Positions 13,818-62,722 of a stretch of 64,000 bases of DNA are shown here, piece after piece (the first letter of the stretch is position 1; each line of letters opens with the position of its first letter). The notes under the pieces were generated by a model, which was given only the letters and a program-made list of their open reading frames with translations, made no database searches and was not told where the DNA came from. The position numbers and the translations under genes were made by a program. The DNA comes from Nitrospiraceae bacterium. Lineage in GTDB: Bacteria > Nitrospirota > Thermodesulfovibrionia > UBA6902. Location: positions 6,556-70,555 of the forward strand of contig QZJG01000057.1 of the NCBI GenBank assembly GCA_003599275.1. The letters run 5' to 3'.

Positions 13818-13898
13818 GTCATTGCGAGGAGTGAAACGACGAAGCAATCTCGCAGTCATAAATAGATTGCCACGCTCCCGTTGGTCGCTCGCAATGAC
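13818..13898. repeat. Palindromic repeat, GTCATTGCGAG family, copy 1
   Basis: The sequence is GTCATTGCGAGGAGTGAAACGACGAAGCAATCTCG...AGATTGCCACGCTCCCGTTGGTCGCTCGCAATGAC. It lies between dprA and topA. Confidence 0.9.
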
Positions 13899-14077
13899 AA
13901 GAAAGCCGCAGTAAAGGTTTCCCTTGAACTGCCGATTAAATGAACAGCGAGCGAATCTAATAAAAAGAATTCCTTACATTAGATTTCCTGACGGTTTCTG
14001 CCGCAGGAAAGATCAAATAGGCGGCACAGGCATCGCGGTCAGCGTGCGGTATTTTTGACAGACAGAGGTATTATTAA

Positions 14078-16342
14078 ATGAAATCACTTTTAATCGTAGA
14101 ATCTCCGGCCAAGGTGAAGACACTGAGCAAGTTCTTAGGCAAGGACTTTACCATCAAGGCGTCAATCGGTCATGTCAAAGACCTTCCCAAAAAAGATATA
14201 GGCGTTGATGTTGAGAACAACTTTGCCCCCACATATGTCGTGATAGAGGGGAAAGAGAAGGTAATGAAGGATTTGAAGAAGGCGGCAAAGGCGGCCGATC
14301 AAATTTTTCTCGGTCCCGACCCTGACAGAGAGGGAGAGGCCATAGCATGGCACATTGCCGAAGAGCTGAACGGCGATTCCGGGAAACTCTTCAGGGTAGA
14401 GTTCAATGAAATAACTGAGAAGGCCGTTACCGAGGCCATCAGGCATCCGAGGAAAATCAACTCGAATCTTTTTGATGCCCAACAGGCCCGAAGGGTCCTT
14501 GACAGGCTCGTCGGTTACAAACTTTCACCGCTTTTGTGGCGCAAGGTGCGCCGGGGTCTCAGCGCCGGGAGGGTCCAGTCCGTTGCGGTCAGGCTTGTCG
14601 TTGACAGAGAGCGTGAGATAGAGGCGTTCAAGTCGCAGGAATACTGGAGCATCACTGCGACATTGGAAGGCAAAGAGCCGCCTCAGTTTGACGCAAGACT
14701 CTTTCAGATATCCGGGCAGAAGGCGGACATTAATAATGAAGAGCAGGCAAAGGGGATTGTTGAAGATCTACAGGGCAGGAGTTTTATTGTCACCGGGACA
14801 GAAAAGAAAAAGAGAAAACGCTCGCCCTCACCTCCTTTTATCACAAGCACACTTCAGCAGGATGCCGCAAGGAAGTTCAGGTTTACCGCCAAAAAGACGA
14901 TGCTTATCGCACAAAAGCTCTATGAGGGAATCGAACTCGGTGAAGAAGGGCCGACCGGCCTTATAACATACATGAGGACCGATTCAGTGCGGGTCGCATC
15001 AGAAGCGCAGCACGAGGCAAGGGAATTCATCGTAAAAAAATACGGCACGGATTATGCTCCGCCAAAACCTCCGGTTTACAAAAGCAAGAAATCAGCGCAG
15101 GAGGCGCATGAGGCAATCAGGCCTACATCCGTTTACAGGGACCCCGCCGACATTAAGAAGTTCCTGGAACCGGACCAGCACAAACTCTATAAACTTGTCT
15201 GGGAGCGGTTCGTCGCAAGCCAGATGGAGTCGGCGCAGCTTGAGCAGACCTCAATTGATATAGGCGCGGACAAATACACTTTCAGGGCGACCGGCACGGT
15301 CGTGACATTCCCCGGATTTATGACGCTGTATATTGAAAGCACGGACAACGGAAAAGAAGAAGAAGGACTTCTGCCTTCATTATCGGAGAATGAGGTCCTG
15401 AAGTCTCTCGGCATTGACCCAAAACAGCATTTCACCCAGCCTCCTCCAAGATACACGGAGGCTTCGCTTGTAAAAGAGCTCGAGGCCAAGGGTATCGGAA
15501 GGCCGAGCACATACGCCTCCATACTTTCTACTATCCAGGACAGGAAATACGCGGAAAAGGCCGAAGGCAAATTCAAGCCGACGGAACTCGGGGTTGTTGT
15601 AAGCGACCTGCTTGTTGAAAGGTTCGCTGATATCATGGACTATAACTTTACTGCGAACATGGAGGACAATCTCGACAAGATAGAAGAAGGCGGCTTTAAG
15701 TGGGTCGATGTTGTGAATGATTTTTACAAGCCTTTTGACAAGGACCTCGCAGAGGCGATGTCGAGCCTCGGCAGGGTAAAGCCCCAGGACATCCCTACTG
15801 ACGAGACCTGTGAAAAATGCGGCGGGCCCATGGTAATAAAATGGGGCCGGTTCGGCAGGTTCATGGCCTGCTCAAAATACCCGGAATGCAAGACCACAAA
15901 GCAGTTGATCAACGCGCAGGGGGGCGAACAAAAACCCCAGCCGCCTGACGATCCCACGGATGAGGTATGCGGCAAATGCGGCTCCCCTATGGTGATTAAA
16001 TCAGGCCGGTTCGGCAGGTTCATAGCCTGTTCAAAATATCCCGAATGCAAGACTACAAAGGCCATCGGCACGGGCGTCAAGTGCCCCGAAGACGGCGGAG
16101 AGATCGTTGAGAGAAGGACGAAAAAGGGCAAGGTGTTCTTCAGCTGCGGCAATTATCCCAAATGCAAATTCGCAACGTGGTATAAGCCAGTGGACAAACC
16201 GTGCCCCAAATGCGGCGCAAGTATTTTAATAGAGAAAAAGACGAAGAAAGAAGAAGTCCTTGCCTGCCTGAAAAAAGAGTGCGGGTATAAGGAAGAGCTT
16301 GAAAAAACCCCGGAAGAAGCAACCAACGACGTACGGGAATAA
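14078..16342 (+). CDS. topA: DNA topoisomerase I
   Basis: It has a Toprim N-terminus (LLIVESPAKVKTL, DPDREGE), the type IA core, and C-terminal C4 zinc ribbons (CEKCGGPM...CSKYPEC and CGKCGSPM...CSKYPEC). Confidence 0.97.
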   Translation: MKSLLIVESPAKVKTLSKFLGKDFTIKASIGHVKDLPKKDIGVDVENNFAPTYVVIEGKEKVMKDLKKAAKAADQIFLGPDPDREGEAIAWHIAEELNGDSGKLFRVEFNEITEKAVTEAIRHPRKINSNLFDAQQARRVLDRLVGYKLSPLLWRKVRRGLSAGRVQSVAVRLVVDREREIEAFKSQEYWSITATLEGKEPPQFDARLFQISGQKADINNEEQAKGIVEDLQGRSFIVTGTEKKKRKRSPSPPFITSTLQQDAARKFRFTAKKTMLIAQKLYEGIELGEEGPTGLITYMRTDSVRVASEAQHEAREFIVKKYGTDYAPPKPPVYKSKKSAQEAHEAIRPTSVYRDPADIKKFLEPDQHKLYKLVWERFVASQMESAQLEQTSIDIGADKYTFRATGTVVTFPGFMTLYIESTDNGKEEEGLLPSLSENEVLKSLGIDPKQHFTQPPPRYTEASLVKELEAKGIGRPSTYASILSTIQDRKYAEKAEGKFKPTELGVVVSDLLVERFADIMDYNFTANMEDNLDKIEEGGFKWVDVVNDFYKPFDKDLAEAMSSLGRVKPQDIPTDETCEKCGGPMVIKWGRFGRFMACSKYPECKTTKQLINAQGGEQKPQPPDDPTDEVCGKCGSPMVIKSGRFGRFIACSKYPECKTTKAIGTGVKCPEDGGEIVERRTKKGKVFFSCGNYPKCKFATWYKPVDKPCPKCGASILIEKKTKKEEVLACLKKECGYKEELEKTPEEATNDVRE

Positions 16343-16373
16343 TTTATTTATTGCTTAAAGACGTCATAGCTCC

Positions 16374-17399
16374 TCATGACGGGTATAAAGTTATCTTCCC
16401 TGCCGAATTCAGGTTGCCCTCAAGCTGATATCGCATCTTCAAAAACTTTTCGATCACCCACAGGTTTGTGACCAGATGCTGTGTTATGCGTGTTGTGAAG
16501 GTTGATTCCTCCCGGGAAAGGCTGAGGTAAATAACCATCTGATCGGCAAGATGCGGGTCCAGACATATTGGGGCATCATGAAAGTCTTTGAACAGCGCTG
16601 CCGCCTCTCTGCCGACTTCCTCGGCGGGTTTCCCCCTTGCACCGAGGGCAGAAAAACCGGTCAGGGAGTTTTCATACTCTCCCCTGAGAAAGACAAAGGT
16701 CCCCTGTCCCGGAGAAGGGACGTCGATGACATCGATATCTGCATGCAGGGGAGAAAGACTTTGCATTACAGCGCTTTTTTGCCTCTCCGCTATATGCCGC
16801 GGAAGGTTTGAGACAGCGGAATATCCGGCAATGGAAAGCAGCCTGCCTTTTGAAACCGCGTTCACCCCTTTGATCTTCCCTATGGGATGGATATTGAAAC
16901 GGACCTCTCCTCCCCCTTTGGGATAAAAACCGTAGATGCTTATGGAAGGCCCGATTTTCACACCGAGCCGGTCGAGCATGGGAACAAAAATTTCCGCTAT
17001 ATAATGGTAGGACGGACTTAAGGGCACATGGGTGCCTCCCCTGATCGTGACATGAGAAGGCTGGTCGGCGAAGAGAAGCGGCGGAAGGACCGTCTGAAAT
17101 ACGAGGGAGCTTGAGCCTGCGGTTTTGATATCAAAGAAGAAACTGCCGTGCCTTACCCTCCCCGGAACAAAACTGAGCTCTGTCGAGCCGGTCCCGTTTC
17201 CCGAAACACGGGCATTGCAGATCCCGGAGGCCGCGTTTACGCAGGTCATGTGCTGCGGCATGAGCCCCGGTTTTTTCCTTTCCTTTCTGATATTGAAAAT
17301 CCTGAACTCTTTTCCTGTAACGCAGCTCAGTCCCAGGGCGGTCCTCAAAATCTGCCCCCCGCCTTCGCCGAAGCTGCCGTCAATCTCAACGGTCTCCAT
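16374..17399 (-). CDS. rtcA: RNA 3'-terminal phosphate cyclase
   Basis: It has the IDGSFGEGGGQILRTALGLS N-terminal signature and the typical length of about 340 aa. No rtcB lies nearby. Confidence 0.9.
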   Translation of the reverse strand: METVEIDGSFGEGGGQILRTALGLSCVTGKEFRIFNIRKERKKPGLMPQHMTCVNAASGICNARVSGNGTGSTELSFVPGRVRHGSFFFDIKTAGSSSLVFQTVLPPLLFADQPSHVTIRGGTHVPLSPSYHYIAEIFVPMLDRLGVKIGPSISIYGFYPKGGGEVRFNIHPIGKIKGVNAVSKGRLLSIAGYSAVSNLPRHIAERQKSAVMQSLSPLHADIDVIDVPSPGQGTFVFLRGEYENSLTGFSALGARGKPAEEVGREAAALFKDFHDAPICLDPHLADQMVIYLSLSREESTFTTRITQHLVTNLWVIEKFLKMRYQLEGNLNSAGKITLYPS

Positions 17400-17430
17400 C
17401 GCGGCCTCTCTTATTTTTTATTCTAATAAA

Positions 17431-17586: not shown

Positions 17587-17692
17587 ATTATCATTTCCGC
17601 AAAAAATCCGCCATCCCCTGACTCGATCAATTCATATCTCCCAACCCTTGACCATCAACAGGGCTTTAATATACCTTATTCAGGAGGCCTGA

Positions 17693-24704: not shown

Positions 24705-24813
24705 GTCATTGCGAGCCAAAGGCGAAGCAATCTCTTTTTATCGCTCGGGATAAACTCCACAAGCTCAAGCTGTTACAAGGAGATTGCCACGGTCGTATCG
24801 ACCTCGCAATGAC
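24705..24813. repeat. Palindromic repeat, GTCATTGCGAG family, copy 2
   Basis: The sequence is GTCATTGCGAGCCAAAGGCGAAGCAATC...GAGATTGCCACGGTCGTATCGACCTCGCAATGAC. Its loop (CTCTTTTTATCGCTCGGGATAAACTCC..) is shared with copy 5. Confidence 0.9.
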
Positions 24814-25997: not shown

Positions 25998-27125
25998 TTA
26001 TGGTATATTGCGGGAACTTAACTCCTCAGTATTCTTTATCGTTGTGCCGGGGTAAAAGTGTTCGAGTATTTCCCTGTAATTTCTCCCCTCTTTTGCCATT
26101 TCAAGCGCGCCCCACTGGCTAAGTCCAACGCCGTGGCCATAACCTTTCCCGTCAAAGATAATCTCCGTATCGGTCTTTTTGATTGAAAAGTCGGTGCTGG
26201 GCAATTCCTTGTATCCAAGCGCTCTCCGGAGCTCCGTCGCGATCACTTCCTTCACTTCATTGGTTTCGGTAAGGAGCTTGAGCGTCCGTGCGCGGCCAGT
26301 TGCCGTATAAGAGGCAATATATATGTCCTTAAGTCCGGTTATGCCGAGGGCCCTGCTGATTTCCTCAGGCGAAAAACGCCTCTGCCAGCTCTCGTAAGGG
26401 GCGTTCTTGCAATTGCACTCCACTGACTTGAGATAAGGGAAACTTTCCTTCCAGACCTCTTCGGGAAGCTCTGTCCTGCCTTCACACGTCGCGTGATAAA
26501 AGGCCTTTACCGGGTCCCTTCCGTACATCAGTATCTCTCCTTTTGTAGCGTTCACCGCCCTTTTAACCGCAGGCTCGACATCCTCGCCCTCCTTATAAAG
26601 CTGATGAAGCACGCTTGACGTCAGATGGAACCGGTCCCCTGAATTGATGTTTTTGTAAAGCAAAGCATAAGTCCTCGATATGACTGCCTGCGCCTTCATG
26701 GCCTCTATCTCCCAATCCTTGCCCAGCTCCGAGGCAACAACCCCCTCGATATACTTCTCAAAGGGCAGGTTATTAATGACATGAAGTCCGTTTTTGTCCC
26801 GCAGGATTTCAAACGAGCCCGAATAAGATTGACCGCTAAAAAAAATCTTGCCCGTTAACCCTTCGACTTTCTCCGCATCTGCCGAAGGTAATGGTTGGCC
26901 GGGGGATTCGAGCATGAGGACCTTGATGGTGTCGTCGGCAAAAGTTACAACTGCGGAAAGGGAAGACAGGACCAGCGTTGCAGTCATTGCGAGGACCCGA
27001 AGGGTCCGTGGCAATCTGGCACGGACCGCCATGTTACACAAAGCAATGAATCTTGCGAGATTGCTTCGGTCGTATCGACCTCGCAATGACAGCTCTCCGG
27101 CAAAGGGATTGCAATAATTTGTCAT
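25998..27125 (-). CDS. SpoIID/LytB domain protein; start uncertain (27125 or 26987)
   Basis: The SpoIID core is present (AQAVISRTYAL, FYHATCEGRTE, GHGVGLSQWGA). Residues 13-48 of the track ORF are a translated GTCATTGCGAG-family repeat. MTATLVLSSLSAVVTFA (ATG at 26987) would be a normal signal peptide. Confidence 0.85.
   Translation of the reverse strand: MTNYCNPFAGELSLRGRYDRSNLARFIALCNMAVRARLPRTLRVLAMTATLVLSSLSAVVTFADDTIKVLMLESPGQPLPSADAEKVEGLTGKIFFSGQSYSGSFEILRDKNGLHVINNLPFEKYIEGVVASELGKDWEIEAMKAQAVISRTYALLYKNINSGDRFHLTSSVLHQLYKEGEDVEPAVKRAVNATKGEILMYGRDPVKAFYHATCEGRTELPEEVWKESFPYLKSVECNCKNAPYESWQRRFSPEEISRALGITGLKDIYIASYTATGRARTLKLLTETNEVKEVIATELRRALGYKELPSTDFSIKKTDTEIIFDGKGYGHGVGLSQWGALEMAKEGRNYREILEHFYPGTTIKNTEELSSRNIP
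26983..27090. repeat. Palindromic repeat, GTCATTGCGAG family, copy 3, inside the 5' end of the spoIID ORF
   Basis: The sequence is GTCATTGCGAGGACCCGAAGGGTCCGTGGCAATC...GAGATTGCTTCGGTCGTATCGACCTCGCAATGAC. Confidence 0.9.
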
Positions 27126-27352: not shown

Positions 27353-27997
27353 TTACTCCCTTGTTCTCCTGCTCAGTTCTTTGGCCTTTACCTCCTCCTC
27401 TCTTTCCTGTCTGCTGTAAACGCACCCGCAATACTTTTGTCTGTAAAGGCCGAGTTCTTTCGAAAGGGCTATCGCGTCCCTGAAATGCGGCCTGAAGTCC
27501 TTCTCGTAGAAAGCGACCTTATGCTTTTCAGAGAGCTCCTTACCGGTAGTTACAATCCGGTCATAGTCCTGATAAGGGCTGATGAGCAGCGTTGTAGAAA
27601 AGGCATCAAAGCCCTCATCACTTGCCGACCTGGCGGTCTTTTCAAGTCTGAGCCGGTAGCATGATTTACACCGTTCGGGGAAAGGAGGTGCATTGTCATT
27701 GCGAGCCGTAGGCGAAGCAATCACATTCTCAGGAGATTGCTTCGTCGTTTCACTCCTCGCAATGACATATCGGACATGTTCAAAATATTCTTCCGGCTTG
27801 TATTCATTCTCATAAATCATTTCAACATGCCATATGTCAGACAGTTTTTTCAGAGAGTTAAGCCTCAATTGATACTCTTCATGCGGGTGAATATTGGGGT
27901 TATACCAAAAGCCGGTGAAGTCGTGCCCGTCTGAACGCGACAGTTTAATGGGGTAAAGGGCACAATTGCCGCAACATATGTGGAAAAGGATTTTCAT
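27353..27997 (-). CDS. queH: Epoxyqueuosine reductase QueH (DUF208), carrying a 24-codon in-frame repeat insertion
   Basis: It has the N-terminal HICCGNC motif, NIHP..EY, and ERC.SCY.LRLE.TA. Codons VIARSETTKQSPENVIASPTARND correspond exactly to repeat copy 4. Confidence 0.85.
   Translation of the reverse strand: MKILFHICCGNCALYPIKLSRSDGHDFTGFWYNPNIHPHEEYQLRLNSLKKLSDIWHVEMIYENEYKPEEYFEHVRYVIARSETTKQSPENVIASPTARNDNAPPFPERCKSCYRLRLEKTARSASDEGFDAFSTTLLISPYQDYDRIVTTGKELSEKHKVAFYEKDFRPHFRDAIALSKELGLYRQKYCGCVYSRQEREEEVKAKELSRRTRE
27695..27766. repeat. Palindromic repeat, GTCATTGCGAG family, copy 4 (72 bp, inside queH)
   Basis: The sequence is GTCATTGCGAGCCGTAGGCGAAGCAATCACATTCTCAGGAGATTGCTTCGTCGTTTCACTCCTCGCAATGAC. 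Its length is a multiple of 3 and it has no stop codon in the queH frame. Confidence 0.9.
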
Positions 27998-28021: not shown

Positions 28022-28158
28022 GTCATTGCGAGCAGGTCCCTCGCTTCGTCATTGCGGGCCAAAGGCGAATCAAGCTCTTTTTATTGCTCGGGATAAACTC
28101 CGCAATCTCAACCTGCTTTCAAAGATTGCTTCGGGGACTTTTGTCCCCTCGCAATGAC
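28022..28158. repeat. Palindromic repeat, GTCATTGCGAG family, copy 5 (composite, two left arms)
   Basis: GTCATTGCGAG sits at 28022, GTCATTGCGGG at 28048, and the right arm ends in CCCCTCGCAATGAC at 28158. It lies between queH and ruvB. Confidence 0.9.
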
Positions 28159-29205: not shown

Positions 29206-29565
29206 GTCATTGCGAGGGGACGAAGTCACCGAAGCAATCTCATAAGGTTTCATACAAATCATTCCACTCAGGATTTAATTTATTAATTATTGCAATCTTT
29301 TTAGCCCTTGATCCAGCCTTGATTTGTTTTTCTCTAACAATAGCATTCTCAACATCTCTACAAATTTCATAGAAAACCAATTTATTAATATTGTATCTTT
29401 TGGTAAAGCCTTCAACTATTTTTTCTTTATGCTCACAAGCCCTTCTCTTTAAGTCGTTGGTTATGCCGGTGTATATTACGTTATGATCCTTATTTGTCAT
29501 TAAATAAATATAGTATTGTTTTTCTCTCATTGAGATTGCTTCGTCGCTTCGCTCCTCGCAATGAC
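29206..29565. mobile_element. GTCATTGCGAG-family element (copy 6) with a GIY-YIG nuclease ORF between its arms
   Basis: The left arm is GTCATTGCGAGGGGACGAAGTCACCGAAGCAATCTCA (29206-29242). The right arm is TGAGATTGCTTCGTCGCTTCGCTCCTCGCAATGAC (29531-29565). The outer 12 nt and inner 12 nt are perfectly complementary. The ORF fills the loop. Confidence 0.7.
29240..29530 (-). CDS. Small stand-alone GIY-YIG (URI-domain) nuclease family protein
   Basis: The sequence is KQYYIYLMTNKDHNVIYTGITNDLKRRACEHK...GFTKRYNINKLVFYE...A..REKQIK......K...I...NPEW.DL. This is the GIY...YIG pattern with conserved R and E residues and resembles COG2827/UPF0213. Confidence 0.85.
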   Translation of the reverse strand: MREKQYYIYLMTNKDHNVIYTGITNDLKRRACEHKEKIVEGFTKRYNINKLVFYEICRDVENAIVREKQIKAGSRAKKIAIINKLNPEWNDLYETL

Positions 29566-30159: not shown

Positions 30160-30170
30160 ATTTTTTGTTC

Positions 30171-30233
30171 AGGCACAAAGATTCAAAGGCACAGAGGCAC
30201 TAATTCCTTTTTTCACTCTGTGCCTTTGTGCCT
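30171..30233. repeat. Hairpin repeat, CACAGAG family (short form), between ruvC and ruvA
   Basis: The sequence is AGGCACAAAGATTCAAAGGCACAGAGGCAC...CACTCTGTGCCTTTGTGCCT. Confidence 0.8.
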
Positions 30234-30244
30234 CATTTTGCAAT

Positions 30245-30769
30245 CTATTTTACCCTAACTGATGAATTTATGTGGCATATGCACAGCGCCAGCGCATCCG
30301 TGCTGTCTTCGCTGCGGGCCGCAGAACCAAGGTTGAGAATGACCTTCACCATCTGCTGTACCTGGCTTTTTTCGGCCCTTCCGTAGCCTGTGAGCGCCAT
30401 TTTCAACTCGGTCGAATTGTATTCAAAAACGGGAAGATCGTTTTGAGCGGCAAGGAGCAGGACGACTCCGCGAGTGCAACCGAGAACAAGGGCCGAACGG
30501 ATGCTTTTGTGGTAGAAGATCTTCTCAATACAGAGCTGGGACGGCCTGTATTCATTAATGATTGTCTTGAGAGAGTCGTACAAAAGGTTCAGACGTTCAG
30601 GCAGTGGGTCTTTTTGCTTCATCCTGACCTCGCCTGAGGCAACGTGATAGAGTTTTGAATTATGAGTTATGACTTTAGAATTAGCATGTTGCGCTAAACT
30701 CTTAACCCCTGACTCAACAATTCCGTAGCCGCAGCAGATAGTCCCCGGATCAATGCCGATGATGCGCAT
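30245..30769 (-). CDS. ruvC: Crossover junction endodeoxyribonuclease RuvC
   Basis: It starts MRIIGIDPG....GYGI and carries the later catalytic E and D/H motifs (EKIF, SEDSTDALALCICH). The beta-hairpin after GYGIVE is about 10 aa longer than I expect and resembles a repeat fragment. Confidence 0.9.
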   Translation of the reverse strand: MRIIGIDPGTICCGYGIVESGVKSLAQHANSKVITHNSKLYHVASGEVRMKQKDPLPERLNLLYDSLKTIINEYRPSQLCIEKIFYHKSIRSALVLGCTRGVVLLLAAQNDLPVFEYNSTELKMALTGYGRAEKSQVQQMVKVILNLGSAARSEDSTDALALCICHINSSVRVK

Positions 30770-31554: not shown

Positions 31555-31654
31555 GTCATTGCGGAGCCTGTTCCGAGCCTATCCTGAGATTGCTTCGTCC
31601 CGATGTTTCGGGACTCGCAATGACAGGAGAGGAATCTCTGCTCCTTGCAATGAC
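31555..31654. repeat. Palindromic repeat, GTCATTGCGAG family, copy 7 (one left arm, two right arms)
   Basis: The sequence is GTCATTGCGGAG...GAGATTGCTTCGTCCCGATGTTTCGGGACTCGCAATGAC, followed by GAGGAATCTCTGCTCCTTGCAATGAC. The second arm matches copy 8. Confidence 0.85.
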
Positions 31655-31866: not shown

Positions 31867-31950
31867 GTCGTCATACCCGTGAAAACGGGTATCCAGAAGG
31901 CTTTGTTTTTCAACGAAACTGGATTCCCGATTACTACCTCGGGAATGACG
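31867..31950. repeat. Palindromic repeat, GTCGTCATACCCG...GGGAATGACG family, copy 1
   Basis: The sequence is GTCGTCATACCCGTGAAAACGGGTATCCAG...CTGGATTCCCGATTACTACCTCGGGAATGACG. It is near-identical to the copy at 60763-60838. Confidence 0.85.
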
Positions 31951-32010
31951 AATAAATACTTTTGCAAGAGCCTCATATGAAAAGATATTTCTGTTAAAAA
32001 GATATTGCAA

Positions 32011-34020: not shown

Positions 34021-34054
34021 GTCATTGCGAGCAGCAGAGATTCCTCGCAATGAC
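34021..34054. repeat. Palindromic repeat, GTCATTGCGAG family, copy 8 (minimal 34-bp form)
   Basis: The sequence is GTCATTGCGAG-cagcagagattc-CTCGCAATGAC, with perfect 11-bp arms. Confidence 0.9.
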
Positions 34055-34713: not shown

Positions 34714-34860
34714 AACCACTGAGGCACAGAGTCACAGAGATTAGGATTAAGAGTCAAGAATATTGGATTTAAATAGTCTGTAAATATCTTTAAACATAAT
34801 TCATGACTCAAAACTCTATACTCTTTATTGTCTTCCTCCGTACCCCTGTGTCTCTGTGTT
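34714..34860. repeat. CACAGAG-family element, long form, copy A (empty site)
   Basis: The sequence is AACCACTGAGGCACAGAGTCACAGAG...TAGTCTGTAAATATCTTTAAAC...CCCCTGTGTCTCTGTGTT. Apart from a 144-bp insertion, it is collinear with copy B. Confidence 0.85.
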
Positions 34861-35068: not shown

Positions 35069-35344
35069 TACCACAGAGGCACAGAGATTTAGAATTAAGA
35101 GTCAAGCATATTGGATTTAAATAGTCTGTAATTCCACTTTGCAATCAAGATGACGCCTTTGTTATTCCGGTCAGAGATTCGTACCGAACTTGTCCGGAAT
35201 CTTTCTTTGTTTTCAGAAGGATTCCCGACGCGCTCCGCTTGCGGGAATGACAACTTAAACACTTAATGGAATAAGATCTTTAAACATATCTCATAACTCT
35301 ATACTCTTTATTGTCTTCCTCCGTGCCTCTGTGTCTCAGTGGTT
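35069..35344. repeat. CACAGAG-family element, long form, copy B (carries a nested insertion)
   Basis: The sequence is TACCACAGAGGCACAGAG...TAGTCTGTAA[144 bp]ATCTTTAAAC...CCGTGCCTCTGTGTCTCAGTGGTT. Confidence 0.85.
35132..35275. mobile_element. 144-bp nested insertion in copy B, containing a GTTATTCCGG...GCGGGAATGAC palindromic element (35161-35251)
   Basis: The segment is absent from the otherwise collinear copy A. In copy A, TCTGTAA is followed after 2 nt by ATCTTTAAAC. Confidence 0.7.
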
Positions 35345-36214: not shown

Positions 36215-36272
36215 GTCATTCCGGCTTGTCCGGAATCCTTATAAAAGAAGATTCCGGACAAGCCGGAATGAC
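36215..36272. repeat. Palindromic repeat, GTCATTCCGGC family (perfect 23-nt arms)
   Basis: The sequence is GTCATTCCGGCTTGTCCGGAATC-cttataaaagaa-GATTCCGGACAAGCCGGAATGAC. Confidence 0.9.
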
Positions 36273-43030: not shown

Positions 43031-43141
43031 GTCAGTGCGAGGTCGATACGACCGAAGCAATCTTTTTTTAGCTATTAATAAGAGCCGTAAGCTTTCAGCC
43101 AGAGACGAGATTGCTTCGTTGCTGAAGCTCCTTGCAATGAC
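43031..43141. repeat. Palindromic repeat, GTCATTGCGAG family, copy 9 (degenerate termini GTCAGTGCGAG / CCTTGCAATGAC)
   Basis: The sequence is GTCAGTGCGAGGTCGATACGACCGAAGCAATC...GAGATTGCTTCGTTGCTGAAGCTCCTTGCAATGAC. It lies between thpR and recA. Confidence 0.85.
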
Positions 43142-57639: not shown

Positions 57640-57670
57640 GTCATTCCGGCTTAAAGATTGCCGGAATGAC
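57640..57670. repeat. Palindromic repeat, GTCATTCCGGC family (minimal form)
   Basis: The sequence is GTCATTCCGGC-ttaaagatt-GCCGGAATGAC. Confidence 0.85.
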
Positions 57671-57703
57671 AAAAAAAGAATTTCTTACTTCCCACTTTAC
57701 GAT

Positions 57704-58516: not shown

Positions 58517-59684
58517 AGAACTTTCAAAATGCGTCCGGTGCGGCGCATGCAAATCATTATGCCCGACGTATTTAACGACACTGAATGAAACGATGGGGGC
58601 CAGGGGCAGGGTGGCCATGCTGGGTGAGCTCGAAGAGGACCGCCTTTCGCCTACAAAGGGGCTTGCCGAAAAGATATTCAGTTGCATGCTCTGCGGGGCC
58701 TGCAAGAACCTCTGCCCTACCGGGATCGATATCCAGGAGGTCATATATCAGGGAAGGGCCAGGCTGAAAAAATCCTTCGGGCGCGGCCTCCTGCTGCGGA
58801 CCGCCCTGAAATACTCGGCATCGAGGATGGACCCGGCTTTTTCCATATTACGTGGATTGCAGTCGGTATTTTACGGGCCGCTCTTCAACGCGGGCCTTCT
58901 GCCTTACATTCCGGAGATAGCCGCGCGGCCTTTTAACAACAGCAGCCAGGTTTATAAAAATATAAAAAAGATCGGCAGGATGGCGATCTTTGCCGGATGC
59001 AGCGTGAATTATTTTTATCCGTATCTGGGGAAAGCCCTGTCGAACATATTGCTCAAAAAGGGATACGAAGTCGTCGTGTTTAAAGGTGAGTCCTGCTGCG
59101 GTGCGCCATTGAGGTCTGCGGGACTTGAACAGGAGGCATTATCTCTCGCAAAAAAAAATACAGAGCACTTCAGGAAGGTGCGGGCCGAGGCGATAATCAG
59201 CATGTGCCCTACGTGCACCTCGGTAATACGCGGGCAATATCCGCTTCTGACCGGAGACACGATCCCTAATTTCCTGGACGTAAATGAATTCATCGTCAAA
59301 TACGGCATCGCGGAAGGTCTTGAAACGGGCCCGGAGGTCGTTACCTACCACGATCCCTGCCATCTCAACTACGGACTTGGGACCAGGAAAGAACCCCGTC
59401 AGATCCTCAAAGGCATCCGGGGCGTTGAATTTGTGGAGATGCAGAACGCGGACGAATGCTGCGGGTTTGCGGGTTTCTTCAGCCTGTATTTTAAAGGCAT
59501 ATCAAAAAGTCTCGGAAGAAAAAAGATGGACAGCATAATCAACTCAAAAGCCGGTACGGTAGTCACTTCATGCCCCGGATGCATCATGCAGCTGGAGAGT
59601 CTGAAAATAGAGACTGACGCAAAAGTTGATGTCAGGCATATCGTTGAGATAATTGATGAAGCTATGGGCGCTGGGGTAAAATAA
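58494..59684 (+). CDS. (Fe-S)-binding protein with two ferredoxin-type clusters and two CCG domains (GlcF/HdrD-like)
   Basis: [24 protein letters not shown], and two Cys-rich CCG regions (ESCCGAP and ECCGFAG) are present. Confidence 0.85.
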
Positions 59685-59724
59685 ACGCGGTATCCGCGGA
59701 TTAATACAAAGGAGAGAGAACCTA

Positions 59725-60369
59725 ATGAAATTTTTTATTGACACGGCAAACACAAAGGAAATCAAAGAGGCGTATTCACTGGGAGTCATAGACGGCGTGA
59801 CTACTAATCCCTCTCTAATGGCAAAAGAGGGCAAAGAGCCGATGAAGCTGCTTAAGGAGATTTGCGCGATAGTTGACGGCCCGGTAAGCGCGGAGGTAAT
59901 CAGCCTCGAGGCTGAAGGGATGGTGAAAGAAGCAAAGAAGCTGGCAAAAATTCACAAGAACATCGTAATTAAGGTCCCGATGACCAAAGACGGGCTCAAG
60001 GCGACAAAGACACTCTCAGGGCTCAAGATAAAAACAAACGTCACACTGATGTTTTCACCGAACCAGGCATTGCTTGCCGCCAAGGCGGGCGCGACTTATG
60101 TAAGCCCGTTTGTGGGGAGGCTCGACGACATAACCCATTACGGCATGGAGCTTGTAAGCCAGATACTTGAAATCTATGACAACTACTCGTTTAACACGGA
60201 GGTCATCGTAGCGAGTATCCGCAACCCGCTTCATGTGCTTGATGCAGCAAGGATAGGCGCCCATGTCGCGACCATCCCCTTTTCGGTCATTGAACAGCTT
60301 TCAAGACATCCGCTTACGGACATCGGAATTGAAAAGTTTCTAAAGGACTGGGAAAAGGTACCGAAGTAA
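59725..60369 (+). CDS. tal: Transaldolase/fructose-6-phosphate aldolase (short, type 3B)
   Basis: [11 protein letters not shown]......G...GVTTNPSL, the Schiff-base Lys in IKVPMT, and [10 protein letters not shown] are present. It resembles the Bacillus-type 212-aa Tal over its full length. Confidence 0.9.
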
Positions 60370-60385
60370 ATTAAGATTGTGTGAT

Positions 60386-60474
60386 GTCATTGCGAGGAGC
60401 ATTAGCGACGAAGCAATCTCACTGGATATAACCGGGCCGAGATTGCCACGCACCCTTCGGGCGCTCGCAATGAC
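60386..60474. repeat. Palindromic repeat, GTCATTGCGAG family, copy 10
   Basis: The sequence is GTCATTGCGAGGAGCATTAGCGACGAAGCAATCTC...GAGATTGCCACGCACCCTTCGGGCGCTCGCAATGAC. Confidence 0.9.
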
Positions 60475-60502
60475 GGTTTGCATGACAATTGGAGGTCAAC
60501 AA

Positions 60503-60721
60503 ATGCCTGTTTACGAATATAAGTGCAATGACTGCAACGAGAACTTTGAAAAGCTTGTCTCCGGGGCAAACCCGGACGTTTCATGCCCGAAATGCAGCTC
60601 GAAAAATATCACGAAGAAGTTTTCCCTGTTCGGCATGAGCGGCGTTGAAAAGCCGGTCACCTCGGCAGGCGGCTCAGGGTGCTCTTCGTGCACCTCTTCC
60701 AAATGTAAAAGCTGCCATTAA
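60503..60721 (+). CDS. FmdB-family zinc-ribbon protein with a Cys-rich tail
   Basis: The sequence MPVYEYKCNDCNENFE...CPKCSS is preceded by GGAGG. The tail is GGSGCSSCTSSKCKSCH. The upstream part of the track's 114-aa ORF is repeat copy 10. Confidence 0.8.
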   Translation: MPVYEYKCNDCNENFEKLVSGANPDVSCPKCSSKNITKKFSLFGMSGVEKPVTSAGGSGCSSCTSSKCKSCH

Positions 60722-60762
60722 AGAGGCTAACAGGCTGCTGAAAAAGTCTGTTGCAATGCCAA

Positions 60763-60838
60763 GTCGTCATACCCGCGAAGGCGGGTATCCATGTCATAAC
60801 ATGGAAGTGGATTCCCGATTACTACCTCGGGAGTGACG
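60763..60838. repeat. Palindromic repeat, GTCGTCATACCCG...GGGAGTGACG family, copy 2
   Basis: The sequence is GTCGTCATACCCGCGAAGGCGGGTATCCATG...GTGGATTCCCGATTACTACCTCGGGAGTGACG. Confidence 0.85.
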
Positions 60839-60887
60839 AACTTCTCGAATTTCAGCAATGACGAATAAAAGGCATGTCCCCAACCCC

Positions 60888-62216
60888 TTAATACTGATAC
60901 TCCATCGCCATCTGGCTAAGGGAGTCTTTGCGAAGGAGGTACTGGACCTTGTCCTCGGCGATCATCCTGAATGCCTGTTTGATAATCTCTTTATAGAATT
61001 CGCAGAACGCCGCCTTTTGGTACATGTTGCCTCTTGCGTGCATTTCAGCCGGGCACGGCGAGCCGCAGATGTGTCTGAAGTCGCAGGTATCGCATTCCTC
61101 GATCTTCTCAACCATCCTCTCGCGGATCTGTTTGAACGGTTTTGACTTCATCGCTGTGTCAATCGACGTCTTGAAGATATTGCCTCCCGAGAATTCCTTG
61201 AATCCGATGAACTCCCCGCACGGGACCATCTCCCCGTCTGCCGTGACAGTGAGGAAGGTCCTTCCGCCGCCGCATGGGGAGATATCGCACATCATGCGTC
61301 TTGCAGTGGGCGCAATAATAGCCAGAATGACGTTTGCGAAATTGCCGATGACGATCTGGTGCTTTGTCTTTTGTGAAAGCTCCATTGCAGTCTCAACCGC
61401 CTTCATCATGTTTTTGGCAAATACCATGTCGTCCGGCTTCAGGCTCCAGGAGCGTTTCTGTGTGAGACGCACCGGGTTTAAAAGCATGCAGGGGACTTTC
61501 TTTTTGTGCAGGAATTTCACAAGCTCCGAGAGTTTATTTACATTGTATTTCGTGACCGTTGCGATAACATTCAGTCCCTCATAGCCCTTGAACCAGTCAA
61601 GCGCCTGCACGGCCTTTTTGAAATTGCCTTCGCCCTTTACAGACACGCGCGAGCGGTTGTTGACAGCAGCAGTAGCCGCGTCAAGGGAAATGCCGACGCC
61701 GACCCTGTATTTCATCATAAAGGCCGCGTCCTTTTTCTCAAGCAGAAGCGCATTGGTCTGGATGCCGAAGAGCATTTTATTGTGATATTTCTTTATCCCT
61801 TCAAAGATAATGTCTTTTGCAAGAAGCGGCTCGGCAGCGTGAAATACGATGACCGGTTTTTTCTTCATGCCGTTGAAATGCTCCGCGATTTTAGACAGTG
61901 TCATGTCCAACTGCTCCCATGTCATCTGTGTGCCGTGCCTTCTGATCTTTGCCGGGATGTAGCAGTAAGGGCAGTTTGCATTGCACCTGTCTGTGGGGTC
62001 AATGTAGACGCAGTTCAGCGGCTCATTGAACCTGAAGTTTTTCATCTCCGTGTCGAGGTGTTCGCGCTCTTTGTTGTAGAGCTTGATCAGATCATCGGGA
62101 AGCATGAATTCCCCGTTGTTACGAGGCAGCAGGCCCCAGAAGACATTCTCCGGATCCAGCGCCAACTTCCATTCTGTATCAATGTTTGAAAACGAAATTC
62201 CGCGTGTGTTGTTCAT
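60888..62216 (-). CDS. Radical SAM/SPASM peptide-maturase-like enzyme (CbpB-like)
   Basis: The CNANCPYC cluster is present. The C-terminal SPASM cysteines are CDISPCGGG...CGEF...CDTCDFRHICGSPCPAE...C. The protein is 442 aa. Confidence 0.85.
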   Translation of the reverse strand: MNNTRGISFSNIDTEWKLALDPENVFWGLLPRNNGEFMLPDDLIKLYNKEREHLDTEMKNFRFNEPLNCVYIDPTDRCNANCPYCYIPAKIRRHGTQMTWEQLDMTLSKIAEHFNGMKKKPVIVFHAAEPLLAKDIIFEGIKKYHNKMLFGIQTNALLLEKKDAAFMMKYRVGVGISLDAATAAVNNRSRVSVKGEGNFKKAVQALDWFKGYEGLNVIATVTKYNVNKLSELVKFLHKKKVPCMLLNPVRLTQKRSWSLKPDDMVFAKNMMKAVETAMELSQKTKHQIVIGNFANVILAIIAPTARRMMCDISPCGGGRTFLTVTADGEMVPCGEFIGFKEFSGGNIFKTSIDTAMKSKPFKQIRERMVEKIEECDTCDFRHICGSPCPAEMHARGNMYQKAAFCEFYKEIIKQAFRMIAEDKVQYLLRKDSLSQMAMEYQY

Positions 62217-62266
62217 TTTGTGTTGCTCTCCTTTTTCATGGTTATATCTGTTACGTAAATACAGCC

Positions 62267-62325
62267 GTCATTGCGGCTTGTCCGCAATCCTTCTTAAAGA
62301 AAGATTCCAGGCAAGCTGGAATGAC
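62267..62325. repeat. Palindromic repeat, hybrid GTCATTGCGGC...GCTGGAATGAC
   Basis: The sequence is GTCATTGCGGCTTGTCCGCAATCC-ttcttaaagaaa-GATTCCAGGCAAGCTGGAATGAC. It lies directly upstream of the rSAM gene. Confidence 0.85.
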
Positions 62326-62378
62326 AATAACAATATGAATACTACCTCGAAATTAAATGACGGACACGACAGTGAATG

Positions 62379-62441
62379 ACCACTGAGGCACTGAGACGCC
62401 GGGGTTTTATTTTTCCTCTGTGCCTCTGTGCCTCTGTGGTT
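62379..62441. repeat. Hairpin repeat, CACAGAG family, 14 nt downstream of the peptide ORF
   Basis: The sequence is ACCACTGAGGCACTGAGACGCCGGGGTTTTATTTTTCCTCTGTGCCTCTGTGCCTCTGTGGTT. Confidence 0.85.
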
Positions 62442-62454
62442 TGCTTATTTTCTG

Positions 62455-62589
62455 TTACAATGGCATCTTCTTCTTCGGCACGTCGCCGTACATTACGAAG
62501 TGCGTAAGGCCGTTTGCTGTCTTGGCGCATTTCATATGAAATGAAATTGCGGCCTTTGTCTTCTTCTCAGCCTTCTTTGCCTTGTTCAT
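62455..62589 (-). CDS. 44-aa candidate precursor peptide (MNKAKKAEKKTKAAISFHMKCAKTANGLTHFVMYGDVPKKKMPL), not in the ORF track (CbpA-like)
   Basis: The Shine-Dalgarno sequence is very strong (AAAGGAGGTGAGGAGTA-ATG). It lies on the same strand between cbiO and the rSAM/SPASM gene. The track's overlapping 62-aa ORF is in a different frame and has no Shine-Dalgarno sequence. Confidence 0.55.
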   Translation of the reverse strand: MNKAKKAEKKTKAAISFHMKCAKTANGLTHFVMYGDVPKKKMPL

Positions 62590-62640
62590 TACTCCTCACC
62601 TCCTTTCTGTCCTTAGCGGTTGCTCAAAAAGTTTGTAATT

Positions 62641-62722
62641 GTCATTGCGAGGAGCGGTTTCAGCGACGAAGCAATCTGTAATTTATTGAAAAGTGAGATT
62701 GCTTTGCTTCGCTCGCAAAGAC
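62641..62722. repeat. Palindromic repeat, GTCATTGCGAG family, copy 11
   Basis: The sequence is GTCATTGCGAGGAGCGGTTTCAGCGACGAAGCAATC...GAGATTGCTTTGCTTCGCTCGCAAAGAC. Confidence 0.85.

What the first reader, a model, noticed from the sequence alone, without database searches (positions are those of the whole stretch)
13818..62722. Superfamily of hairpin repeats sharing (T)GTCAT...ATGAC(A) termini; the ruv-que gene string is a hot spot
Eleven loci carry GTCATTGCGAG...GCAATC // GATTGC...CTCGCAATGAC. They start at 13818, 24705, 26983, 27695, 28022, 29206, 31555, 34021, 43031, 60386 and 62641.

The arms come in exchangeable sub-types:
- ...GGAGCGAAGCGACGAAGCAATC
- ...GCGACCAACGGGAGCGTGGCAATC
- ...GGTCGATACGACCGAAGCAATC

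Two sister families keep the same outer bases but change the core. One is GTCATTCCGGC...GCCGGAATGAC, at 35161, 36215, 57640 and 62267 (35161 is a GTTATTCCGG variant; the last is a GTCATTGCGGC / GGAATGAC hybrid). The other is GTCGTCATACCCG...GGGA(A/G)TGACG, at 31867 and 60763. Conserved termini with variable interiors suggest one shared recognition or mobilisation machinery.

Between yebC and queA (about 24.7-31.7 kb) there is an element at almost every gene junction and inside two genes, so the distribution is not random. Flanks are usually T on the left and A on the right, and I see no obvious target-site duplication.
Basis: seen in the sequence. Interest (0 to 1): 0.6.

Follow-up and report, generated by a model that had tools for sequence, protein, structure and literature searches.

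The report
Ssn nuclease hairpin repeats, Thermodesulfovibrionia
The GTCAT...ATGAC repeats are real; they are the DNA hairpins that small Ssn (GIY-YIG) single-strand nucleases recognise, a system described in 2025, and the nuclease gene sits inside one of them, so this is a new example rather than a new kind of element.

Summary
All 17 listed loci exist, far above chance, and the ruv-que string is the densest 7-kb repeat bin of the 3.05-Mb genome.

Each arm is an oriented module: an unpaired TGTC tag, a basal stem (ATTGC/GCAAT, ATTCC/GGAAT or ATACC/GGTAT), a variable top, then C. Arms mostly occur as inverted pairs with the tags pointing outward.

The pair at 29206-29565 encloses a 96-aa single-domain GIY-YIG gene between ruvA and ruvB. 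Among its 80 best homologues, from more than 12 phyla, 52 carry the same arms on both sides. Other GIY-YIG clades carry other GTCAT-hairpin-ATC arms.

This matches the Ssn nuclease / Ssn-related motif (SRM, NTS) system of Chenal et al. 2025 (PMC11893778). There, Ssn binds the hairpin only as single-stranded DNA and cuts a few bases upstream.

Evidence for insertion:
- Orthologous gene junctions in relatives are empty.
- Arm counts are very patchy within the genus.
- One 72-bp copy sits in frame inside queH.
- There is no target-site duplication.

How the repeats spread is not shown, here or in the paper.

Verdict: a new member of a known kind, of moderate to low interest. The main arm class (GCGAG core) is missed by the published search string.

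The parts
29206..29565 (-). SRM-ssn-SRM cassette (360 bp) inserted between ruvA and ruvB
   Evidence: Two inverted GCGAG-class arms enclose the ORF. Relatives have 2-15 nt, or unrelated repeats, at this junction.
29240..29530 (-). ssn homologue: 96-aa single-domain GIY-YIG nuclease
   Evidence: Pfam PF01541 covers residues 5-78, E 2.6e-16. More than 8000 homologues exist at 61-76% identity. Y9, Y20 and E67 are invariant and have the same spacing as Y6, Y17 and E64 of Neisseria meningitidis (Nm) SsnA.
29534..29565 (-). Upstream arm of ssn: GTCATTGCGAGGAGCGAAGCGACGAAGCAATC, ending 3 nt before the ATG
29206..29239 (+). Downstream arm of ssn: GTCATTGCGAGGGGACGAAGTCACCGAAGCAATC; its inner end directly abuts the ssn TGA stop codon (29240-29242)
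   Evidence: As DNA it folds at -5.5 kcal/mol with the ATTGC/GCAAT basal stem.
13818..13898 (.). GCGAG-class SRM pair (81 bp)
   Evidence: DNA fold -18.4 kcal/mol, z -4.1.
24705..24813 (.). GCGAG-class composite pair (109 bp) between phoH and queA, with an inner GCTCGGGATAAACTCC module
26983..27090 (.). GCGAG-class pair (108 bp) overlapping the 5' end of spoIID
27695..27766 (.). GCGAG-class pair (72 bp, 24 codons) in frame inside queH, in its variable linker
   Evidence: The Pfam QueH match is split in two. The insert is absent from 19 relatives.
28022..28158 (.). Compound GCGAG-class element (137 bp) between queH and ruvB, with a second left tag at 28048
   Evidence: This junction is 2-6 nt long in five relatives.
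31555..31654 (.). GCGAG-class pair with a variant left arm and an extra right tag, upstream of yebC
34021..34054 (.). 34-bp mini-palindrome made of the two tags only
43031..43141 (.). GCGAG-class pair (111 bp) with degenerate tags
60386..60474 (.). GCGAG-class pair (89 bp)
62641..62722 (.). GCGAG-class pair (82 bp)
   Evidence: A paralogue at 85.6% identity lies on contig C62.
35161..35251 (.). ATTCC-class pair (91 bp; the left tag is GTTATT)
36215..36272 (.). ATTCC-class pair (58 bp), a near-perfect hairpin
   Evidence: DNA fold -29.4 kcal/mol, z -12.6. The same arm flanks a GIY-YIG gene in relative G001 (L120).
57640..57670 (.). ATTCC-class 31-bp mini-palindrome
62267..62325 (.). Hybrid pair: ATTGCGGC..CCGCAAT arm plus ATTCCAGC..CTGGAAT arm, with compensated stems
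31867..31951 (.). NTS-like pair: a CGTCATACCCG..CGGGTATCCAG arm plus an ATTCCCG arm
   Evidence: It matches the published degenerate SRM string at 31869.
60763..60839 (.). NTS-like pair of the same type
   Evidence: It matches the published SRM string at 60765.

Best explanation
**What it is.** The repeats are Ssn-related motifs (SRMs). The gene inside the pair at 29206-29565 is their cognate Ssn, a 96-aa single-domain GIY-YIG endonuclease.

**Anatomy (shown here).** Each arm reads 5'-T-GTC, then a basal stem, a variable top, the complementary basal stem, then C-3'. The basal stem is ATTGC in the main class and ATTCC or ATACC in the sister classes. Arms usually sit as inverted pairs with the tags outward and a spacer of 11-49 nt.

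**Biochemistry (shown for four homologues by Chenal et al. 2025; inferred for this protein).** When the DNA is single-stranded, the hairpin forms. Ssn binds it, needing the stem sequence and the C after it. Ssn then cuts that strand a few nucleotides 5' of the GTC tag. It does not cut double-stranded DNA, RNA or the complementary strand.

**Consequence for a pair (inference).** In a tags-outward pair, each strand carries one cleavable arm at its own 5' boundary.

**Spread (inference).** The elements entered this lineage by horizontal transfer of the 360-bp arm-gene-arm cassette. They multiplied as gene-less pairs by a process that starts from a single-strand nick and leaves no duplication, either copy-repair or a peel-and-paste-like step. 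This is not cut-and-paste by a DDE-type (classical) transposase.

**Possible effect on the host (inference).** As in Neisseria, the sites may also let the cell cut incoming or exposed single-stranded DNA that carries them.
For: **Link between gene and arms**
- Of the 80 best loci encoding homologues, from more than 12 phyla, 58 have the tag upstream, 64 downstream and 52 both.
- Miscalled N- and C-terminal extensions of homologues are translated arms.

**The positions that matter biochemically are the conserved ones**
- I located arms by the stem alone and then read the neighbouring bases. The unpaired TGTC is present in 119, 128, 132 and 130 of 132 arms. The C after the palindrome is present in 125 of 132.
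- Chenal et al. found the three bases upstream critical for cleavage and that C critical for binding.

**Protein**
- It is a single GIY-YIG domain, with the catalytic Tyr/Tyr/Glu spacing of SsnA.
- It is 48-51% identical (E about 1e-33) to GIY-YIG proteins of relatives whose arms lie within 3 mismatches of the Neisseria NTS consensus.

**Co-variation**
- Arm class follows the Ssn clade: 6 label changes on the tree against a shuffled mean of 14.2, with 0 of 500 shuffles as low.
- The basal stem covaries across arm classes: 85% of cells paired against 67% when shuffled, 0 of 500.

**Co-occurrence**
- Among 41 related genomes, all 5 with a cognate Ssn (155 bits or more) fall within the 9 arm-rich genomes. 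Fisher p is about 1.7e-4, computed.

**Insertion**
- The ssn cassette and the neighbouring pairs are absent from orthologous junctions of 13 relatives.
- The 24-codon queH insert is unique to this genome.
- There is no target-site duplication.
- The densest cluster in the genome contains ssn.
Against: - No biochemistry exists for this protein or for this arm class.
- Assignment to CDD family cd10448 could not be run.
- The published degenerate SRM string matches 0 of 123 GCGAG arms. It also misses arms within 3 mismatches of the NTS consensus, so it is a narrow heuristic.
- Single GCGAG arms fold weakly as DNA (-1.6 to -7.8 kcal/mol, z about -2 to +1). The whole pair instead prefers one long hairpin that pairs the two tags with each other.
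- Mobility is inferred from presence and absence only.
  - The window's elements have no full-length paralogue above 92% identity, so none is a recent copy.
  - The only high-copy subfamily, about 30 copies elsewhere in the genome, is conserved about 30 nt beyond both tags. Its copied unit is therefore not bounded by the predicted Ssn cut sites.
- Four arm-rich relatives lack a cognate ssn; G006 has 80 arms and is 100% complete.
- The 82 ATTCC-class arms of this genome have no cognate gene in the assembly.
Confidence: 0.85

Rival explanations
1. REP/REPIN-type elements moved by a Y1 (HUH) transposase of the RAYT / IS200-IS605 kind. Under this reading the GIY-YIG gene is a passenger.
For: The layout resembles REPINs: inverted pairs of tagged hairpins, no target-site duplication, and a single-copy gene flanked by the repeats. 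The genome does hold one Y1_Tnp gene.
Against: - That Y1 gene (C74:3259-3588) is flanked by its own, different inverted repeat, GGGGTCAGGCCTACACATTTTACAAA. No GTCATT arm lies near it.
- The gene flanked by the arms in more than 12 phyla is the GIY-YIG gene.
- The tag is TGTC, not the GTAG or CGTC of REPs (title and abstract of PMC3733652).
Confidence: 0.03
2. The gene is a homing-type selfish endonuclease that parasitises pre-existing hairpin pairs by inserting into their spacer. The pairs would then spread, or be kept, by some other route or for a host function.
For: The ORF sits exactly in the spacer of a pair, with 3 nt and 0 nt of slack. Arm-rich genomes without the gene exist: G006, G025 and G035. 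Related GIY-YIG enzymes are classical homing endonucleases (general knowledge).
Against: Characterised Ssn proteins do not cut double-stranded DNA, which classical homing needs. Arm class and protein clade co-vary, which fits recognition of the arms by the protein under either reading.
Confidence: 0.1
3. Host-domesticated recognition sites with no current mobility. Here Ssn and its sites act as a single-strand DNA restriction or recombination-modulating system, as shown for transformation in Neisseria. The copies would be old and kept by selection.
For: - The function is published for N. meningitidis.
- The window's elements are diverged, at most 92% identical as whole units, yet their tags are nearly invariant. 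That suggests selection on the tags.
- There is a single ssn copy.
Against: - The distribution is patchy within one genus, from 0 to 123 arms.
- Ssn proteins at 61-73% identity are scattered over more than 12 phyla.
- A subfamily of about 30 near-identical copies exists.
- These points indicate recent gain and amplification. This reading can also coexist with the main one.
Confidence: 0.25
4. RNA-level elements: terminators, processing sites or mRNA stabilisers at gene junctions of the ruv-que operon.
For: Most copies sit between co-directional genes. Whole pairs fold well, with z from -3.5 to -12.6.
Against: - No Rfam family matches.
- No T-run follows the hairpins.
- One copy lies in frame inside queH and one overlaps the spoIID start.
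- The conserved positions are unpaired, strand-specific tags tied to a DNA nuclease that does not bind RNA.
- Relatives lack the elements at the same junctions.
Confidence: 0.05

Closest known systems
Ssn nucleases with NTS / Ssn-related motifs (SsnA of Neisseria meningitidis; Chenal et al., Nat Commun 2025, PMC11893778)
   Same: - A gene of about 95 aa with a single GIY-YIG domain, bracketed by inverted hairpin repeats.
- An oriented repeat with a conserved (H)GTC tag 5' of the palindrome and a C after it.
- Tens to hundreds of gene-less copies, clustered and mostly intergenic.
- Distinct protein and motif pairs that co-evolve.
- The window's ATACC arms match the published SRM string, and its ATTCC arms are NTS-like.
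   Different: - The main class has a GCGAG/GAAGC internal loop above a 5-bp ATTGC/GCAAT stem. Its top varies in length from 26 to 43 nt. The published search string misses it (0 of 123).
- The host is an uncultivated Thermodesulfovibrionia (Nitrospirota) bacterium.
- Arms are organised almost entirely as tags-outward pairs with heterologous arms.
- One copy lies in frame in a gene.
- No activity has been measured.
REPIN / RAYT systems (Bertels and Rainey 2011, PMC3116915) and BIMEs
   Same: Inverted pairs of short tagged palindromes. A single-copy gene flanked by the same repeats. No target-site duplication. The biology depends on single-stranded hairpins.
   Different: The enzyme is a hydrolytic GIY-YIG nuclease, not a Y1/HUH transposase. 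The tag is TGTC, not GTAG or CGTC. On each strand only one arm of a pair is in the cleavable orientation. No transposition has been shown.
Neisseria dRS3 repeats and the intergenic mosaic elements they flank (from my own knowledge, and as summarised in PMC11893778)
   Same: ATTCCC-N-GGGAAT-type palindromes that bracket short variable segments and cluster around particular genes.
   Different: Here the bracketed spacers are 11-49 nt, and the dominant stem is ATTGC rather than ATTCC.
Rickettsia palindromic elements (from my own knowledge)
   Same: Hairpin repeats that insert in frame into protein-coding genes without destroying them, as in queH here.
   Different: There is no sequence relation that I tested. 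Rickettsia palindromic elements are longer and have no assigned enzyme. Chenal et al. do note SRM-rich Rickettsia genomes.

Membership tests
Ssn / SRM system (PMC11893778) | Small (about 94-100 aa) single-domain GIY-YIG protein | tested here: met
   96 aa. Pfam PF01541 covers residues 5-78 and no other domain is found.
Ssn / SRM system (PMC11893778) | [quoted passage not shown] | not testable with these tools
   No CDD search is available. NCBIfam gives only a weak, sub-threshold hit to a group I intron endonuclease model, and PDB gives none. Indirect link: 48-51% identity to proteins flanked by arms within 3 mismatches of the NTS consensus.
Ssn / SRM system (PMC11893778) | Catalytic Tyr, Tyr and Glu (Y6, Y17 and E64 in N. 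meningitidis (Nm) SsnA) | tested here: met
   Y9, Y20 and E67 are invariant in 25 homologues. The spacings of 11 and 47 residues are identical to those implied.
Ssn / SRM system (PMC11893778) | Gene flanked on both sides by inverted hairpin repeats (SRM-ssn-SRM) | tested here: met
   True in the window and in 52 of 80 homologous loci from more than 12 phyla.
Ssn / SRM system (PMC11893778) | Oriented motif: conserved unpaired bases 5' of the palindrome and a C immediately 3' of it | tested here: met
   TGTC is present in 90-100% of 132 arms located by the stem alone, and the following C in 95%.
Ssn / SRM system (PMC11893778) | Match to the published degenerate search string HGTCWYN(0-2)YYVSBRHN(0-5)WNVSBRGN(0-2)RNCYNB (a search heuristic, not a definition) | tested here: not met
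   0 of 123 GCGAG arms match; the two ATACC arms at 31869 and 60765 do. The string also misses arms within 3 mismatches of the NTS consensus. It was built from 29 genomes of 4 phyla.
Ssn / SRM system (PMC11893778) | Many gene-less copies, in genomes that hold the cognate gene | tested here: met
   240 arms in this genome. All 5 relatives with a cognate Ssn are among the 9 arm-rich genomes of 41 (Fisher p about 1.7e-4).
Ssn / SRM system (PMC11893778) | Cuts only single-stranded DNA, a few nucleotides upstream of the motif | not testable with these tools
   This needs purified protein and oligonucleotides.
REP/REPIN-RAYT | A Y1/HUH transposase gene flanked by the repeats | tested here: not met
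   The only Y1_Tnp gene has different flanking repeats.
REP/REPIN-RAYT | GTAG or CGTC tag next to the palindrome | tested here: not met
   The tag is TGTC.
MITE of a DDE-type (classical) transposon | Terminal inverted repeats plus a target-site duplication | tested here: not met
   No direct repeats of 2-5 nt above chance at offsets 0-3 in 62 pairs.

The most novel reading that the evidence does not exclude
Tags-outward SRM pairs may be REPIN-like non-autonomous replicators, and the 360-bp arm-ssn-arm cassette their autonomous form. They would be moved or copied by a hydrolytic GIY-YIG single-strand nickase rather than by any known transposase class. That would make a third type of hairpin-recognising single-strand element, beside IS200/IS605 and RAYT/REPIN. 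It would spread between phyla and occasionally donate in-frame linkers or start codons to host proteins (queH and spoIID here).
Probability: 0.3. Interest if true: 0.7.

Novelty: new member of a known kind. Interest (0 to 1): 0.3.

Why it matters
The finding extends the Ssn/SRM system in two ways. It adds an uncultivated anaerobe lineage (Thermodesulfovibrionia). It also adds a hairpin class (ATTGC stem, GCGAG loop) that the published search motif misses, even though this class flanks a very conserved Ssn clade in more than 12 phyla. Published SRM counts are therefore probably underestimates.

The conserved yebC-ruvC-ruvA-ruvB-queH string gives clean filled-versus-empty comparisons. These support insertion, a point the original paper left as a hypothesis.

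For annotation:
- Many short ORFs and N- or C-terminal extensions reading 'VIARSEATKQS', 'SLRGAKRRSNL', 'HCEERSDEAIS' or 'DCF..LAMT' are translated arms.
- Gene starts next to the arms, such as spoIID, need care.

For tool-building, each protein and arm pair is a candidate new specificity for cutting single-stranded DNA.

Tried and rejected
- **RAYT/IS200 as mobiliser.** Rejected. The single Y1_Tnp gene has its own, unrelated inverted repeats.
- **Other GIY-YIG genes of the genome.** These are UvrC and an RNase H-GIY-YIG fusion on C42, and neither is flanked by arms.
- **Rfam.** The gathering-threshold scan gave only a tRNA.
- **PDB by sequence.** No hit.
- **Strain variants, to obtain an exact empty site.** The exact RuvA look-up found nothing. 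A 30-nt ruvA-end pattern found nothing in metagenome contigs.
- **Empty copies of the 145-bp composite family within the genome.** None; all 15 fully matched copies carry the pair.
- **A 'GTCGCGCCC...GGGCGCG' family seen in a generic tagged-hairpin scan.** It is a CRISPR array on contig C1 and is unrelated.
- **Pairs with long spacers, as possible cargo carriers.** Only the ssn cassette qualifies; the others are adjacent separate elements.
- **Supplementary tables of PMC11893778.** Not held.

Full report
**1. The observation**

The termini are real and far above chance.
- GTCATTGCGAG with up to 1 mismatch occurs 25 times in the window against 1.2 expected.
- GTCATTCCGGC occurs 10 times against 1.2 expected.
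- GTCGTCATACCCG is exact at 31867 and 60763.

Pairing left and right termini reproduces all eleven main loci and the six sister loci. Small corrections:
- 31555 has a variant left end and an extra right tag at 31654.
- 28022 holds a second left tag at 28048.
- 34021 and 57640 are mini-palindromes of 34 and 31 bp, made of the two tags only.
- 29206-29565 is not a plain repeat, because it contains an ORF.

The whole assembly has 3.05 Mb, 74 contigs and 47.6% G+C. The window is C5:6556-70555. The genome holds 136 exact and 219 one-mismatch copies of the 11-mer.

**2. Anatomy**

Each arm is a module of 26-43 nt: GTCATTGCGAG, a variable top, then (C)GAAGCAATC or GTGGCAATC.
- ATTGC pairs with GCAAT in the minimum-energy DNA fold of 57 of 67 distinct arms.
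- Many tops are small perfect stem-loops that differ between copies, such as GGTCG-ATA-CGACC, GAACCC-GAAG-GGTTC and GGGAC-AAA-GTCCC.

I then located arms by the stem alone (ATTGCGAG...GCAAT) and read the neighbouring bases.
- The unpaired bases before the stem are T, G, T and C in 119, 128, 132 and 130 of 132 arms.
- The base after the stem is C in 125 of 132.

The module is therefore oriented.

Genome-wide I count 240 arms of the three classes.
- 154 of them form 77 tags-outward pairs.
- 75 of these have spacers of 11-49 nt. The other two are the ssn cassette (294 nt) and a pair of adjacent separate elements (250 nt).
- Only 2 pairs have identical arms. This confirms the 'exchangeable sub-types'.

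As single-stranded DNA, a whole pair prefers one long imperfect hairpin in which the two tags pair with each other. Energies run from -18 to -29 kcal/mol and z from -3.5 to -12.6. Isolated GCGAG arms fold only weakly, at -1.6 to -7.8 kcal/mol. Both conformations have to be kept in mind.

There is no target-site duplication. The T on the left and the A on the right are simply the first base of the motif on each strand.

**3. The gene**

Window 29240-29530 (minus strand) encodes 96 aa with a single GIY-YIG domain.
- The upstream arm ends 3 nt before the ATG.
- The downstream arm begins directly after the stop codon.

The protein has more than 8000 database relatives at about 65-76% identity. Several of them carry miscalled extensions such as MSLRGAQRRSNL, MCHCEERSDEAIS, VIARSKATRSNL or ERDCFGCFRNLAMT. 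These are translated arms.

A scan of one genome per species found 512 loci. The best 80 come from the following groups, at 61-73% identity:
- Chloroflexota, Nitrospirota, Desulfobacterota, Atribacterota and Nitrospinota.
- Cyanobacteria, Planctomycetota, Patescibacteria/CPR2 and Elusimicrobia.
- Omnitrophica, Ignavibacteria, Actinomycetes and others.

Among these 80 loci, 58 have the tag within 90 nt upstream, 64 within 90 nt downstream, and 52 have both. Most of the rest have an arm in another orientation.

In relatives of the window's genome, lower-scoring GIY-YIG genes are flanked by other arms with the same plan:
- GTCATTCTGAGCGAAGCGAAGAATC
- GTCATTTCGACCAAAGGGAGAAATC
- GTCATCCTGAACTTGATTCAGGATC
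- GTCATTCCTGCGAAAGCAGGAATCCAG
- GTCATTCCGGCTTGTCCGGAATC
- GTCACCCTGAACTTGTTTCAGGGTC

On a tree of 100 proteins, arm class is clustered. It needs 6 changes against a shuffled mean of 14.2, and 0 of 500 shuffles are as low. Across 16 arm types the basal stem keeps pairing through compensatory changes: 85% of cells are paired against 67% when shuffled, 0 of 500, and the signal collapses when the partner is slid. I set the arm ends by eye, so this test leans towards the structure.

**4. What is known**

Searches that combined GIY-YIG with REP or MITE terms found nothing relevant. A broader search found Chenal et al., Nat Commun 2025 (PMC11893778). Their results:
- The Neisseria NTS repeat is CGTCATTCCCGCGMAVGCGGGAATCYRG, an oriented extension of dRS3.
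- NTS-like 'Ssn-related motifs' flank a 94-aa single-domain GIY-YIG gene, ssnA (CDD cd10448), in many phyla.
- 71% of homologues have an SRM nearby and 42% have one on both sides.
- 81% of genomes with more than 200 SRMs have the gene.

They also showed the following about the enzyme:
- SsnA binds the hairpin only as single-stranded DNA and cuts a few nucleotides upstream.
- It does not act on duplex DNA, RNA or the reverse strand.
- The three bases upstream of the palindrome govern cutting.
- The C right after the palindrome governs binding.
- Y6A, Y17A and E64A abolish cutting.
- Three further homologues cut their own motifs.
- The knockout raises transformation with NTS-bearing DNA five-fold.
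- The authors note the IS-like NTS-ssnA-NTS layout and the analogy to REP/RAYT, but they do not show mobility.

The window fits this system on every feature I could test; see the membership table. The invariant Y9, Y20 and E67 have exactly the Y6, Y17 and E64 spacing. The conserved unpaired TGTC and the trailing C are the published critical positions.

The published degenerate search string matches the two ATACC arms (31869, 60765) but none of the 123 GCGAG arms. It also misses arms within 3 mismatches of the NTS consensus. I therefore treat it as a narrow heuristic, not as a definition. The window's protein is 48-51% identical (E about 1e-33) to relatives whose arms are near-canonical NTS.

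**5. Insertion, distribution and the hot spot**

The order yebC-ruvC-ruvA-ruvB-queH is conserved in 13 relatives up to class level (gene names from Pfam).
- The ssn cassette is present only in this genome.
- The ruvA-ruvB spacer is 2-15 nt in four relatives. With the cassette removed, this genome would have 14 nt.
- The ruvB-queH spacer is 2-6 nt in five relatives, against 189 nt here.
- Where relatives have longer spacers, these hold unrelated palindromic families. Examples are GGCACAAAGGCACAGAGGCAC... and CCACAGATTACGCAGAT... .
- In G007 and G010 the spacers hold NTS-like SRMs. In G032, a different family in the same order, there is an independent GCGAG pair at ruvB-queH.

The 72-bp pair inside queH adds 24 codons (VIARSETTKQSPENVIASPTARND) to a variable linker. 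It is unique to this genome. Several relatives carry peptides derived from other repeats in the same linker.

Arm counts in 41 relatives are very patchy even within the genus: 123, 80, 19, 9, 7 and six zeros. A cognate Ssn, scoring 155 bits or more, is found only in five genomes, and all five are arm-rich. From those tables I compute Fisher p of about 1.7e-4.

That test is therefore negative, and the elements are insertions.

The ruv-que string is the top 7-kb bin of the genome, with 10 arms against a mean of 0.55, and it contains ssn. Two non-exclusive causes fit:
- local accumulation next to the nuclease gene, as in the published clustering;
- a gene string whose junctions tolerate hairpin repeats of any family.

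**6. Limits on the 'mobile' reading**

- The window's elements have no full-length paralogue above 92% identity. They are old copies whose tags have stayed nearly invariant.
- The only high-copy subfamily lies outside the window and has about 30 copies, often at contig ends. It is conserved about 30 nt beyond both tags and is enclosed by an outer inverted repeat, TAACAGGCTGCTGAAAAAGT. No copy lacks the inner pair. Its copied unit is therefore not set by the predicted Ssn cuts.
- Four arm-rich relatives lack a cognate gene.
- The 82 ATTCC-class arms here have no cognate gene in this assembly, which is 88.6% complete.
- Read data that could show excision joints were unavailable, and no strain variants were found.

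**7. Mechanism, with its status**

- Shown here: the anatomy, the gene-arm association, the co-variation, and presence or absence at orthologous sites.
- Shown elsewhere for homologues: hairpin-dependent, strand-specific cutting of single-stranded DNA upstream of the tag.
- Inferred: this protein does the same on GCGAG arms.
- Inferred: in a tags-outward pair, each strand has one cleavable arm at its own 5' boundary.
- Inferred: spread starts from such nicks, by copy-repair or a peel-and-paste-like step, without duplication of the target.
- Inferred: the cassette moves between phyla.

I put about 0.85 on membership of the Ssn/SRM system. I put about 0.3 on the stronger claim that Ssn itself mobilises the pairs.

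**8. Host**

Contigs of G031, G032 and G040 are identical in length and protein to named records of Nitrospirae and Thermodesulfovibrionia metagenome-assembled genomes (L020, L005 and L071). The first two are in the same order as the window's genome and the third in the same class. The window's genome is therefore a Thermodesulfovibrionia (Nitrospirota) bacterium.

**9. Verdict**

- The system is already described, so this is a new member: a new arm class and a new host.
- Earlier notes of this scan reach the same reading in other genomes. I found the paper independently and do not count those notes as evidence.

Noticed in passing
window 26983-27090 and spoIID ORF 25998-27125 (minus strand): The pair overlaps the 5' end of spoIID. 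Relatives start with a short signal peptide of the form MKK..., about 20-25 aa. Here the only in-frame starts are the ATG inside the tag (gcAATGAC, giving MTATLVLSSLSAVVTFA) or an ATG in the spacer. With the spacer ATG, the positively charged N-terminal stretch of the signal peptide (RARLPRTLR) would be encoded by the arm.
   Followed up: partly
window 30165-30245 (ruvC-ruvA spacer); also near 34723 and 62432: A second, unrelated palindromic repeat family (GGCACAAAGGCACAGAG...CTCTGTGCCTTTGTGCC) has 14 hits in the genome. It fills the same ruv-que junctions in relatives G001, G005, G008, G009 and G016.
   Followed up: partly
L082, L083, L085, L091, L099 (queH linker of relatives): The queH linker of several relatives holds other repeat-derived peptides, such as SPLTPLLQRGE..PPLTKGGEGGF and PFSKGGQRGI. 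This linker is a recurrent landing site for different hairpin repeats.
   Followed up: no
outside the window: G000 contigs C1:15906, C3:56911, C7:45049, C14:53450, C65:13946 and others: A composite family of about 145 bp has about 30 copies, often at contig ends. It is a GCGAG pair (GGAACGTTAGTGAC arm plus CGAAGTGAAGC arm) enclosed by an outer inverted repeat, TAACAGGCTGCTGAAAAAGT. No copy lacks the inner pair.
   Followed up: partly
window 24735-24760 and 28085-28110; L033, L055, L058 downstream of ssn: A third conserved module (GCTCGGGATAAACTCCGCAATC, or its complement GATTGCGGAGTTTATCCCGAGC) recurs in the spacer of composite pairs and next to ssn genes in other phyla. It has an arm-like ...CCGCAATC end but no GTCATT tag.
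   Followed up: no
outside the window: G000 C74:2655-3725 and C24:733-1739: The single Y1_Tnp (IS200-like) gene has a long C-terminal extension and is flanked by the inverted repeat GGGGTCAGGCCTACACATTTTACAAA. A second pair of that repeat lies on C24.
   Followed up: partly
outside the window: G000 C42:32400-33160: An ORF fuses an RNase H-like N-terminal part to a GIY-YIG domain. It is not flanked by arms. The RNase H reading comes from the sequence by eye and was not tested.
   Followed up: no
outside the window: G000 C1:97776-98540: A CRISPR array with repeat GTCGCGCCCCGTACGGGCGCGTGGATT..., about 66-nt period and at least 12 units listed (39 matches genome-wide), surfaced in a generic GTC-hairpin scan.
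   Followed up: no
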